Source: Leucoraja ocellata
Lineage: Eukaryota
Direction of reading: 5' to 3'
Length of the DNA stretch: 64,000 nt
Assembly (NCBI GenBank): GCA_036785375.1
Contig: JAWMAR010000008.1
Location: forward strand, 806,001 to 870,000
The position numbers and the translations under genes are program-made. The number at the start of each line of letters is the position of its first letter. Position 1 is the stretch's first letter. This document shows positions 3,916 to 55,278 of the stretch, piece by piece. The notes under the pieces were generated by a model. The model was not told the DNA's origin. It did no database searches and saw only the letters and a list, made by a program, of their open reading frames with translations.

Positions 3916-3996
3916 TCAAAATCCAAACACTCCCCCAACTGTGGATGCAATGACGACCCCCAGCACCACACAGCATATAATGATCATGATCTTCTT
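3916..3996 (-). CDS. STX1A: Canonical terminal transmembrane exon 10b: KKIMIIICCVVLGVVIASTVGGVFGF*
   Basis: Acceptor ggctacag, phase 0, TGA at 3916-3918. Matches the STX1A tail KKIMIIICCVILGIVIASTVGGIF including the Cys-Cys pair. Confidence 0.95.
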   Translation of the reverse strand, partial: KKIMIIICCVVLGVVIASTVGGVFGF

Positions 3997-10922: not shown

Positions 10923-11000
10923 TTAACTGAGAGACACAGCCAAAGCAATGATGATAATCAACAGTACTACTGCAATGCATATTCCTATAAAGATCATTTT
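10923..11000 (-). CDS. STX1A: Alternative transmembrane exon 10a: KMIFIGICIAVVLLIIIIALAVSLS*
   Basis: Strong acceptor gttttcttcccttcccacag with branch-point-like CTCAC about 28 nt upstream. Phase 0. Lys followed by a 24-aa uncharged tail anchor and TAA. Too short for the ORF track, translated by hand. Confidence 0.82.
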   Translation of the reverse strand, partial: KMIFIGICIAVVLLIIIIALAVSLS

Positions 11001-11037: not shown

Positions 11038-11043
11038 CATGCA
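11038..11043 (-). promoter_or_regulatory. Rbfox element UGCAUG next to the exon 10a branch point
   Basis: CATGCA on + at -43..-38 from the acceptor, 6 nt upstream of the CTCAC branch candidate (11027-11031). A second copy lies at 10907-10912, just after the stop. Confidence 0.6.
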
Positions 11044-16540: not shown

Positions 16541-16756
16541 TGTGTCGGAAAGAACTGCAGATGTTGGTTTAAATCGAAGGTAGCCACAAAATGCTGGAGT
16601 ACCTCAGCGGGACAGGCAGCATCTCTGGAGAGAAGGAATGGGTGACGTTTCGGGTTGAGATCAGTCTGAAGAAGGGTCTTGACCCGAAACGTCACCCATT
16701 CCTTCTCTCCAGAGACGTTCCCTGTCCCGCTGAGCAACTCCAGCATTTTGTGTCTC
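16541..16756. repeat. Penelope-derived palindrome with intact hammerhead-like core (16666-16693, +)
   Basis: Near-perfect inverted arms around CTGAAGA-AGGGTCTTGACCC-GAAA-CGTC. Confidence 0.8.
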
Positions 16757-17697: not shown

Positions 17698-17703
17698 CAT
17701 GCA
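17698..17703 (-). promoter_or_regulatory. Rbfox element UGCAUG just downstream of the exon 9b donor
   Basis: CATGCA on +, 25-30 nt into the intron after exon 9b. Downstream position is the enhancer position in the Rbfox RNA map. Confidence 0.6.
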
Positions 17704-17727: not shown

Positions 17728-17838
17728 CCGGCGCGCTTTACTCTGGTACTTAACCGCCTTTTTTGTGTCAGACACTGCCCTCTCTACGTAGTCAACTGAG
17801 TGCTCGACGTTGTATTCGATCCTGTCTATCATCTCTCC
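17728..17838 (-). CDS. STX1A: Exon 9b, canonical syntaxin-1 C-terminal SNARE half: [37 protein letters not shown]
   Basis: Acceptor ctctttcctcgatgcccag, donor CGG|gtgagt. 111 bp, phase 0/0. Essentially identical to vertebrate syntaxin-1 residues 227-263. Confidence 0.96.
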
Positions 17839-17914
17839 CTGGGCATCGAGGAAAGAGCAGACACGCATGAAAGTAACAGAGGTGCTTCAGCGGCCATTGT
17901 CCCCAGTCACTTAC

Positions 17915-18025
17915 CCGCCGGCTGGTACTCTTAAAATTAACTGCTTTTTTTGTGTTCTCCTTCGCGTCGCCTATGTAATCCGTTGCATTAACAACGTTCC
18001 TCTCAATGCTGTTGACCACATCACC
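17915..18025 (-). CDS. STX1A: Alternative exon 9a, syntaxin-2-like C-terminal SNARE half: [37 protein letters not shown]
   Basis: Acceptor tctttctccttctgtttcag, donor CGG|gtaagt. 111 bp, phase 0/0, open frame. 16/37 aa identical to exon 9b, with heptad-layer positions identical or conservatively changed. Confidence 0.88.
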
Positions 18026-20982: not shown

Positions 20983-21120
20983 CTGGCTTTCCACCAGCAT
21001 TGCCATGTCCATGAACATATCGTGCAGCTCGCGAATACAGTTCTCCAGTTTGATGATCTCATGATGTCGCGTTTCAATCTCATTTAGAGCCTGCTTCGTG
21101 ATGTTGGAATCCATTATGAT
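20983..21120 (-). CDS. STX1A: Syntaxin-1A-like coding exon (exon 8 equivalent, N-terminal half of Qa-SNARE to the zero-layer Gln): [46 protein letters not shown]
   Basis: Acceptor ctcttctcttag, donor CAG|gtaaga. 138 bp, phase 0/0. SGIIMDS and MFMDMAML fit STX1A better than STX1B (DIKMDS, MFVDMAML) as recalled. Confidence 0.95.
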
Positions 21121-27798: not shown

Positions 27799-27872
27799 CC
27801 CTGATGTGAAGATAGCAGGATTCCCACTCTCCAGCATGTCTTCCAGCTCCTCATTTGTGGTCGTTCTTCCAG
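27799..27872 (-). CDS. STX1A: Syntaxin-1A-like coding exon (exon 7 equivalent, linker): (T)[24 protein letters not shown]
   Basis: Acceptor ttattctag, donor GGG|gtaagt. 74 bp, phase 1 to 0. Contains the linker [15 protein letters not shown] with the L165/E166 equivalent. Confidence 0.95.
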
Positions 27873-55169: not shown

Positions 55170-55278
55170 TGATTTCAAGTTGGCGTTGGATTCGTCCTTT
55201 GCAACGCTCCCTGTAGTCGGTCTGTGTGCCATTGTACTCAGACATCACTTCCACAAATTTACGAGACAGTGTAGAATG
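55170..55278 (-). CDS. STX1A: Syntaxin-1A-like coding exon (exon 6 equivalent, Hc helix): [36 protein letters not shown](T)
   Basis: Manual translation. Acceptor ttttgtttgcag, donor A|gtgagt. 109 bp, ends in phase 1 and joins the next exon as A+CT = Thr. Peptide is near-identical to syntaxin-1 residues ~120-156, including the Cys145 equivalent. Confidence 0.95.

What the first reader, a model, noticed from the sequence alone, without database searches (positions are those of the whole stretch)
17728..18025. Tandem mutually exclusive exon pair 9a/9b: core layers kept, surface rewired
Seen: 16/37 identity. SNARE layers +1..+8 read V,I,V,A,I,A,T,A in 9a and I,I,V,S,V,A,T,A in 9b, which points to purifying selection rather than a decayed copy. 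Known: the synaptotagmin-1 C2B primary interface uses syntaxin D231, E234 and E238. In 9a these are N, E and V, so two acidic contacts are lost. The PIP2-binding juxtamembrane KARRKK becomes TSRRK with 10a. The TKKAV botulinum-C cleavage motif is retained in both. Inference: 9a forms SNARE complexes but is less coupled to fast Ca2+-triggered release.
Basis: partly seen in the sequence, partly recalled or inferred. Interest (0 to 1): 0.8.

Follow-up and report, generated by a model that had tools for sequence, protein, structure and literature searches.

The report
Fish syntaxin-1A keeps syntaxin-2-like alternative end
The nerve-cell membrane-fusion gene syntaxin-1A of this cartilaginous fish, like that of many other fishes, carries a second, ancient version of its last two exons that resembles the non-neuronal syntaxin-2, the same two-way switch already known from syntaxin-3 and a natural counterpart of a chimera that neuroscientists built by hand.

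Summary
In detail: two 111-nt exons (9a 18025-17915, 9b 17838-17728, minus strand), 76 nt apart, 16/37 identical, with layers and residues as stated. The gene is STX1A; terminal exons 10a and 10b follow. 9a is neither a local novelty nor decayed: 9a is modelled in STX1A of rays, sharks, sturgeons, coelacanth and many teleosts, and in 0 of 55 tetrapod STX1A rows seen. It is the STX2/STX3A-type exon: 22-23/37 identical to STX2 exon 9, and an origin inside STX1A is rejected (p-AU 0.009, 37 columns). Human STX3 has the same order, 9A-9B-10A-10B. Every usable branch adenosine lies within 47 nt of the 9a donor, which fits steric exclusion; no junction reads were obtained. The functional inference is only partly supported: a published STX1A chimera with STX2's C-terminal SNARE half kept release speed, lost primed vesicles and unclamped spontaneous release. 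The botulinum-C motif is not conserved among 9a orthologues. Verdict: a known kind of cassette in a paralogue where my searches found no paper on it.

The parts
55170..55278 (-). STX1A exon 6 (shared, 109 nt)
   Evidence: P0001 match
27799..27872 (-). STX1A exon 7 (shared, 74 nt)
20983..21120 (-). [quoted passage not shown]
   Evidence: same 46 residues as Narcine and shark models
17915..18025 (-). [quoted passage not shown]
   Evidence: 31/37 identical to Narcine XP_069766522.1
17839..17914 (-). 76-nt intron between 9a and 9b; the only yUnAy branch candidate is the A at 17868, 47 nt from the donor
17728..17838 (-). Exon 9b: canonical neuronal STX1/STX3B-type exon
   Evidence: identical in 73 of 80 b-type copies held
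17698..17703 (-). TGCATG (Rbfox-type site, recalled) 25 nt downstream of the 9b donor; candidate neuronal enhancer of 9b
   Evidence: also in the second copy of the locus
11038..11043 (-). TGCATG 43 nt upstream of the 10a acceptor; candidate neuronal silencer of 10a
   Evidence: also in the second copy of the locus
10923..11000 (-). Exon 10a (coding part with stop): STX2-type membrane anchor, one cysteine (C271), M at 265
   Evidence: 16/25 to frog STX2, 14/25 to bird STX2, 7/25 to 10b
3916..3996 (-). Exon 10b (coding part with stop): canonical STX1 anchor with K265, C271, C272
   Evidence: 21/25 to bird STX1A

Best explanation
This STX1A gene has kept both halves of an alternative C-terminal cassette (9a or 9b, then 10a or 10b) that already existed before STX1A, STX2 and STX3 became separate genes. 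STX3 kept both, STX2 kept the a-type exon 9, and tetrapod STX1A appears to have kept only the b-type. Shown: exon anatomy, conservation in fishes, a-type kinship. Inferred: 9a and 9b exclude each other because the branch point of the 76-nt intron is too close to the 9a donor; Rbfox-type proteins favour 9b/10b in neurons; 8-9a-10a makes a full-length syntaxin with STX1A's N-terminal regulatory part and an STX2-like SNARE end, linker and anchor, used mainly for non-phasic or non-neuronal exocytosis. At a synapse it would still fuse vesicles at normal speed but hold a smaller, less stable primed pool.
For: 9a-bearing STX1A models in Narcine, six sharks, sturgeons, coelacanth, eels, tarpons, bonytongues, herring, cyprinids, catfishes and percomorphs. 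Two Logan contigs of 1199 and 1604 nt encode 8-9a-10a contiguously, which fits spliced RNA of a cyprinid-like fish. 31 of 31 9a peptides score higher against this genome's STX2-type exon 9 than against 9b. Columns 232, 235 and 248 separate all 22 a-type from all 5 vertebrate b-type rows; the a-type is one side of a branch at 79/93, and AU tests reject a STX1A-internal origin (p 0.0086), an elasmobranch origin (p 0.0007) and a STX3-internal origin (p 0.0053). Human STX3: 111-nt 9A, 119-nt gap, 111-nt 9B, then 10A, 10B. All intron adenosines but those at -7 and the acceptor lie within 47 nt of the donor, under the roughly 50-nt steric limit. 9a has 5 of the 6 STX2-type substitutions tested in neurons (N231, R235, V238, K248, E249) and a neutral S at the sixth; chimera phenotype.
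Against: No reads from this species: neither expression nor tissue nor exclusivity was observed. The tree has 37 columns and the a-branch is not starred; the AU hypotheses were run after the tree was seen. By raw identity 9a is no closer to STX3 9A (13, 15 of 37) than to 9B (14, 13). 12 of 121 protein models contain both 9a and 9b, two of them named isoforms (sturgeon X4, arapaima X5). T260, M265 and the missing C272 predict less palmitoylation and less spontaneous release, opposite to the SNARE-half effect, so the net synaptic phenotype is open. The Rbfox sites were noted post hoc; another lies 28 nt before constitutive exon 8. All function data are from mouse proteins.
Confidence: 0.65

Rival explanations
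1. One reading: 9a is a neuronal isoform that assembles SNARE complexes but is poorly coupled to fast calcium-triggered release because synaptotagmin-1 and PIP2 contacts are lost.
For: N231 in 31 of 31 and no E at 238 in 31 of 31 9a peptides; K260 in only 2 of 31. Chimera EPSC amplitude fell; K260A/Q resembled K260E in EPSC and pool size; whole STX2 gives slowed release, and the authors place synchrony in linker and anchor, which 9a/10a also change.
Against: D231N/E234Q/E238Q kept evoked release and raised release probability; chimera kinetics unchanged, release probability +42%. Net charge of 256-265 is +4 here against +6 for 9b/10b, but +6 in several percomorph 9a/10a models.
Confidence: 0.2
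2. The main 9a product is a soluble syntaxin without anchor: exon 8 joins 9a, the blocked 9a donor stays unused, and translation runs into the intron and stops.
For: Named models of four sharks and one knifefish end this way; read-through here adds 40 residues and a stop, no anchor; soluble forms of STX1A, 1B, 2, 3 and 4 are described (10.1101/162958, passages).
Against: 10a is open and conserved (22/25 with Narcine); 32 of 121 models and two transcript-sized contigs join 9a to 10a; the read-through tails differ in length and sequence between species.
Confidence: 0.1
3. The pair is not strictly exclusive: 9a and 9b can both be included, in frame, giving a syntaxin with a doubled C-terminal SNARE half.
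For: Both exons are multiples of three; 12 of 121 models hold both; in some teleosts the intron is longer, 132 to about 350 nt by read-through frames.
Against: Branch geometry in this species; 10 of those 12 models carry no isoform label and look like automatic predictions; the longer teleost introns read as pyrimidine-rich, as in distant-branch-point exclusive pairs (inference from amino-acid make-up).
Confidence: 0.1
4. 9a arose by a separate exon duplication inside STX1A and resembles STX2 by convergence or chance.
For: STX2 exon 9 is as identical to 9b (23-26/37) as to 9a (22-23/37); crustacean and other invertebrate syntaxins show tandem exon-9-like units that do not group with the vertebrate a-type, so this exon duplicates repeatedly.
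Against: AU p 0.0086; shared diagnostic columns; same exon order and spacing as STX3; 10a independently matches the STX2 anchor exon.
Confidence: 0.05
5. 9a is a decaying, unused copy.
For: It evolves much faster than 9b (31/37 against Narcine, 11-23/37 against 9b); no RNA seen here.
Against: Open frame, canonical splice sites and five invariant columns across 31 peptides; pN 0.24 against pS 0.74 versus STX2 exon 9; 0 substitutions in 9a and 10a between the genome's two copies against 2.6 expected, P 0.08, suggestive only.
Confidence: 0.02

Closest known systems
Syntaxin-3A/3B (STX3 exons 9A/9B and 10A/10B)
   Same: Same exon order, same 111-nt sizes, short intervening intron (119 nt human, 76 nt here), switch at the zero layer, a- and b-type diagnostic residues.
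   Different: Here the host gene is STX1A, whose well-known form is the b-type; in STX3 the b-type is the retina-specific form. 10a resembles STX2's KLMF-type anchor and has C271; STX3A has no anchor cysteine.
Syntaxin-2 (exon 9 and its alternative anchor exons)
   Same: 9a 22/37 identical to human and 23/37 to this genome's STX2-type exon 9; 10a 14-16/25 to bird and frog STX2 anchors.
   Different: STX2 has a single exon 9 (one found in this genome's copy within the 24.5 kb fetched) and keeps K260, Y257, Q258, where 9a has diverged.
Engineered STX1A-2(Cter) chimera (PMC10957171)
   Same: Swap starts at Q226, where exon 9 starts; five of six tested surface substitutions occur in 9a.
   Different: The chimera ends at residue 255 and keeps STX1A's linker and anchor; the natural form changes these too.
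Mutually exclusive pairs enforced by a branch point close to the upstream donor (OGDH 4a/4b and 57 human clusters)
   Same: Homologous exons, frame-neutral, donor-to-branch distance under 50 nt.
   Different: Branch point only predicted here; the intron is short rather than long with a distant branch point.

Membership tests
STX1A orthologue | Shared exons match named STX1A proteins | tested here: met
   Exon 8 identical to Narcine and shark 'syntaxin-1A' models; 9b identical to bird and fish STX1A
STX1A orthologue | Neighbourhood of the Williams-Beuren block (TBL2 near STX1A; recalled) | tested here: inconclusive
   A TBL2-like last exon lies about 23 kb past 10b (score 0.97, low recognition value); BUD23 family search found nothing and its controls were blank too
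Mutually exclusive exon pair | Tandem homologous exons, same length and phase, canonical splice sites | tested here: met
Mutually exclusive exon pair | Each exon used alone between common flanks | tested here: met
   Models of both kinds within one species (Stegostoma X1/X2, Clarias X3-X5, sturgeon X2/X3); orthologues only, not this species
Mutually exclusive exon pair | Never both in one transcript | tested here: inconclusive
   No reads; 12 of 121 models have both; branch geometry favours exclusion here
STX3-type a/b C-terminal cassette | Order 9a-9b-10a-10b with the switch at the zero layer | tested here: met
STX3-type a/b C-terminal cassette | a with a and b with b across paralogues | tested here: met
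   Branch 79/93, AU p 0.0086, 0.0053; 37 columns only
STX3-type a/b C-terminal cassette | Tissue-specific use of the two ends | not tested
   No read data obtained
Functional Qa-SNARE | Layer residues and zero-layer Q intact, anchor present | tested here: met
   Pfam SNARE and Syntaxin on P0001
Functional Qa-SNARE | Forms a complex with SNAP-25/23 and a VAMP and drives fusion | not testable with these tools
   Needs biochemistry; no complex prediction was run

The most novel reading that the evidence does not exclude
The neuronal versus non-neuronal division of labour among vertebrate plasma-membrane syntaxins began as a splice switch in one ancestral gene; fish STX1A still runs it, combining two SNARE ends with two anchors (all four combinations occur among gene models) to tune priming stability, clamping and palmitoylation cell by cell under Rbfox-type control, and tetrapods lost the a-side. 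Fish would then offer the natural in-vivo test of what the syntaxin C-terminal SNARE half does.
Probability: 0.35. Interest if true: 0.7.

Novelty: new member of a known kind. Interest (0 to 1): 0.48.

Why it matters
STX1A is usually treated as having one membrane-anchored end. If fishes splice an STX2-like end onto it, the residues that mouse mutagenesis ties to clamping and priming (231, 232, 235, 238, 248, 249, 260, 272) are switched naturally by splicing, which can be tested by exon-specific knockouts in fish. It also explains STX1 versus STX2 as the two halves of one ancestral cassette, and warns that fish stx1a constructs and annotations may carry the non-canonical end.

Tried and rejected
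No reads were laid, so junction use is open. dN/dS across elasmobranchs could not be computed (orthologues came as proteins only); within-genome comparisons are near saturation or underpowered (0 of 111 against 1.5 expected, P 0.22). STX3 and STX1B were not found in the own genome in two protein searches that each scored 47 candidates; this is not absence. BUD23 synteny search uninformative. Botulinum-C motif as a selected feature rejected (K252 22/31, K253 16/31). General loss of linker charge rejected as a 9a-wide trait. Bilaterian age of the exon-9 a/b split not shown: all 7 invertebrate rows have R232 and fall on the b side. Literature: no listed title or abstract start on a fish STX1A alternative end; no supplement hit for STX1A or STX1B in the human catalogue. 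A paper search for Rbfox control of Stx3 gave nothing I used (listing only). No fold or complex prediction was run: a textbook SNARE bundle would pass by likeness. Earlier scan notes: none near or by sequence.

Full report
Observation. On the minus strand the window holds exons 6 to 10 of a syntaxin gene. After exon 8 (21120-20983) come two 111-nt, phase-0 exons with canonical splice sites: 9a (18025-17915) and 9b (17838-17728), 76 nt apart, 16/37 identical in protein and 64/111 in DNA, third codon positions most diverged. 9b matches residues 227-263 of solved syntaxin-1A, which fixes the numbering. Two terminal exons follow, 10a (11000-10923) and 10b (3996-3916). A second copy of the locus on contig C49 differs at 224 of 16558 intronic positions and 0 of 519 exonic ones (P 0.001 for all five exons, 0.22 for 9a alone).

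Which gene. Named relatives are syntaxin-1A; exon 8 is identical to ray and shark models. A TBL2-like exon lies about 23 kb downstream (a lead, since recognition was low; that TBL2 neighbours STX1A is recalled). A separate STX2-like gene on C281 has one exon 9 and an anchor exon.

Conservation. A search with exon 8+9a+10a of the electric-ray model gave 1694 hits, of which 120 were listed. Of 121 proteins classified: STX1A 9b+10b 56, 9a+10a 32 (three of them with a 9a start and a 9b end), 9b+10a 5, 9a+10b 1, a cyprinid extra b-type exon +10a 5, both 9a and 9b 10, 9a+other 2, frog STX2 8, one unanchored, one mite. The unanchored row and one '9a+other' row also contain both exons, making 12. 9a occurs in ray, sharks, sturgeons, coelacanth and many teleost groups; cluster members add Chiloscyllium, Stegostoma and Cetorhinus (28/37 to this 9a). 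None of the 55 tetrapod STX1A rows (54 birds, 1 frog) has it, although the ranking favours such forms; this is annotation-level evidence from 120 of 1694 hits, and genomes were not searched. Zebrafish was not among the rows shown. Two Logan contigs (1199 and 1604 nt) encode 8-9a-10a contiguously, too short to hold the introns, so probably spliced RNA. Among 31 hand-picked 9a peptides (the window's plus one per taxon; hybrid-ended rows left out) G227, N231, I233, E234 and V237 are invariant, while 9b is identical in 73 of 80 b-type copies: 9a is selected, but more loosely.

Origin. All 31 9a peptides score closer to this genome's STX2 exon 9 than to 9b. With STX2, STX3 9A/9B (fur seal, skink) and seven invertebrate exons, columns 232, 235 and 248 separate 22 a-type from 5 vertebrate b-type rows; the a-type forms one side of a branch at 79/93, in 80% of 200 bootstrap trees. 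Forcing 9a with 9b is rejected (p-AU 0.0086; elasmobranch-only 0.0007; STX3 9A with 9B 0.0053). Limits: 37 columns, branch not starred, tests run after seeing the tree, and raw identity of this 9a to STX3 9A and 9B is equal (13-15). Independent support: human STX3 has 9A (111 nt), 119 nt, 9B (111 nt), 10A, 10B (PMC8373072 supplement rows), and 10a matches the STX2 anchor exon (14-16/25 against 7/25 to 10b). That paper (passages, section 17 and supplement rows seen) dates the STX2 and STX3 events to Bilateria and has no STX1A row; my invertebrate rows all fall on the b side, so I show only that the exon-9 split predates the paralogues.

Splicing. Both exons preserve frame, so decay cannot enforce exclusion. 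In the 76-nt intron every adenosine except the one 7 nt before the acceptor and the acceptor's own lies within 47 nt of the donor; the one yUnAy match is at 47. Under 50 nt is the published steric criterion (PMC5740500 and PMC7969005, passages; the latter mapped a fish branch point at 46 nt in an exclusive pair). Against strictness: the 12 double-inclusion models, two with isoform names. TGCATG lies 25 nt after 9b and 43 nt before 10a, in both genome copies (background 32 sites in 64 kb, about 5% per 100 nt); by the recalled Rbfox position rule both favour 9b/10b in neurons, but further sites flank exon 8, 10a and 10b, and this was noticed post hoc. No reads were laid.

Function. PMC10957171 (abstract, sections 7 and 16, passages) swapped STX1A residues 226-255 for STX2's in STX1-null mouse neurons: smaller EPSC, unchanged kinetics, pool 0.5 to 0.2 nC, release probability +42%, spontaneous rate eightfold. 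Of its six point mutants 9a carries five exactly and a neutral residue at 232. PMC11213007 (passages) found D231N/E234Q/E238Q keeps evoked release but unclamps and impairs priming. So losing these acids predicts a leakier, less stable primed state, not loss of fast triggering. PMC9183232 (abstract and passages) pulls the other way: palmitoylation needs a basic residue at 260, and losing C272 lowers spontaneous release; 9a has T260 (K in 2 of 31) and 10a lacks C272 and K265. The most economical view is that 9a/10a gives STX1A an STX2/STX3A-like end for non-phasic or non-neuronal exocytosis; tissue is inferred, not shown. The botulinum-C site claim is true here but incidental (K253 in 16 of 31).

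Known and new. The cassette type is known from STX3, and the fish STX1A isoforms already sit in automatic annotations. Six searches of the open library (listings) showed no paper on them; subscription papers are not covered. One earlier scan note describes a similar double end in an algal syntaxin (unchecked). Verdict: real, selected, ancient; a new member of a known kind; interest 0.48.

Noticed in passing
P0046, P0051, P0057, P0059, P0070 (cyprinid STX1A models): Cyprinids have a third exon-9 version, b-type but only 25-28/37 identical to 9b, modelled with 10a.
   Followed up: partly
P0013, P0015, P0035, P0036, P0050, P0056, P0060, P0063 and P0074 (percomorph 9a): 9a has P252, C254 and a very basic end; the last SNARE layers look degenerate in these fishes (9 of 31).
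   Followed up: no
P0016, P0041, P0055 (eel, mormyrids): Models with the start of 9a and the end of 9b in one 37-residue unit: alignment artefact or an internal splice.
   Followed up: no
window 17915 downward; P0004, P0169, P0174, P0175, P0190: Several shark models and one knifefish model read through the 9a donor to an early stop, giving an anchorless syntaxin; here the read-through adds 40 residues.
   Followed up: partly
P0122, P0132, P0124, P0012: Woodlouse, prawn and an unnamed animal have tandem exon-9-like units, and a mite model has two tandem syntaxin units; none groups with the vertebrate a-type.
   Followed up: partly
L012 (G000:C368:1470338-1470670): Intronless C-terminal syntaxin fragment with a short deletion in the SNARE motif, probably a processed copy of an STX4-like gene (label recalled).
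   Followed up: no
L003-L007, L013, L014 (G000:C125): A single-exon syntaxin-like gene ending in a cysteine-bearing tail occurs twice, 267 kb apart, each with a broken partial copy about 6.5 kb upstream.
   Followed up: no
G000 C8 versus C49: The STX1A locus is present twice at about 98% identity, probably both haplotypes; STX3 and STX1B were not found.
   Followed up: partly
window 16582-16755: Two 86-nt arms head to head, 87% complementary, 2 nt apart, about 1 kb downstream of 9b; looks like inverted copies of a short repeat element.
   Followed up: no
L044:2-400: TBL2-like last coding exon on the plus strand, about 23 kb beyond exon 10b.
   Followed up: partly
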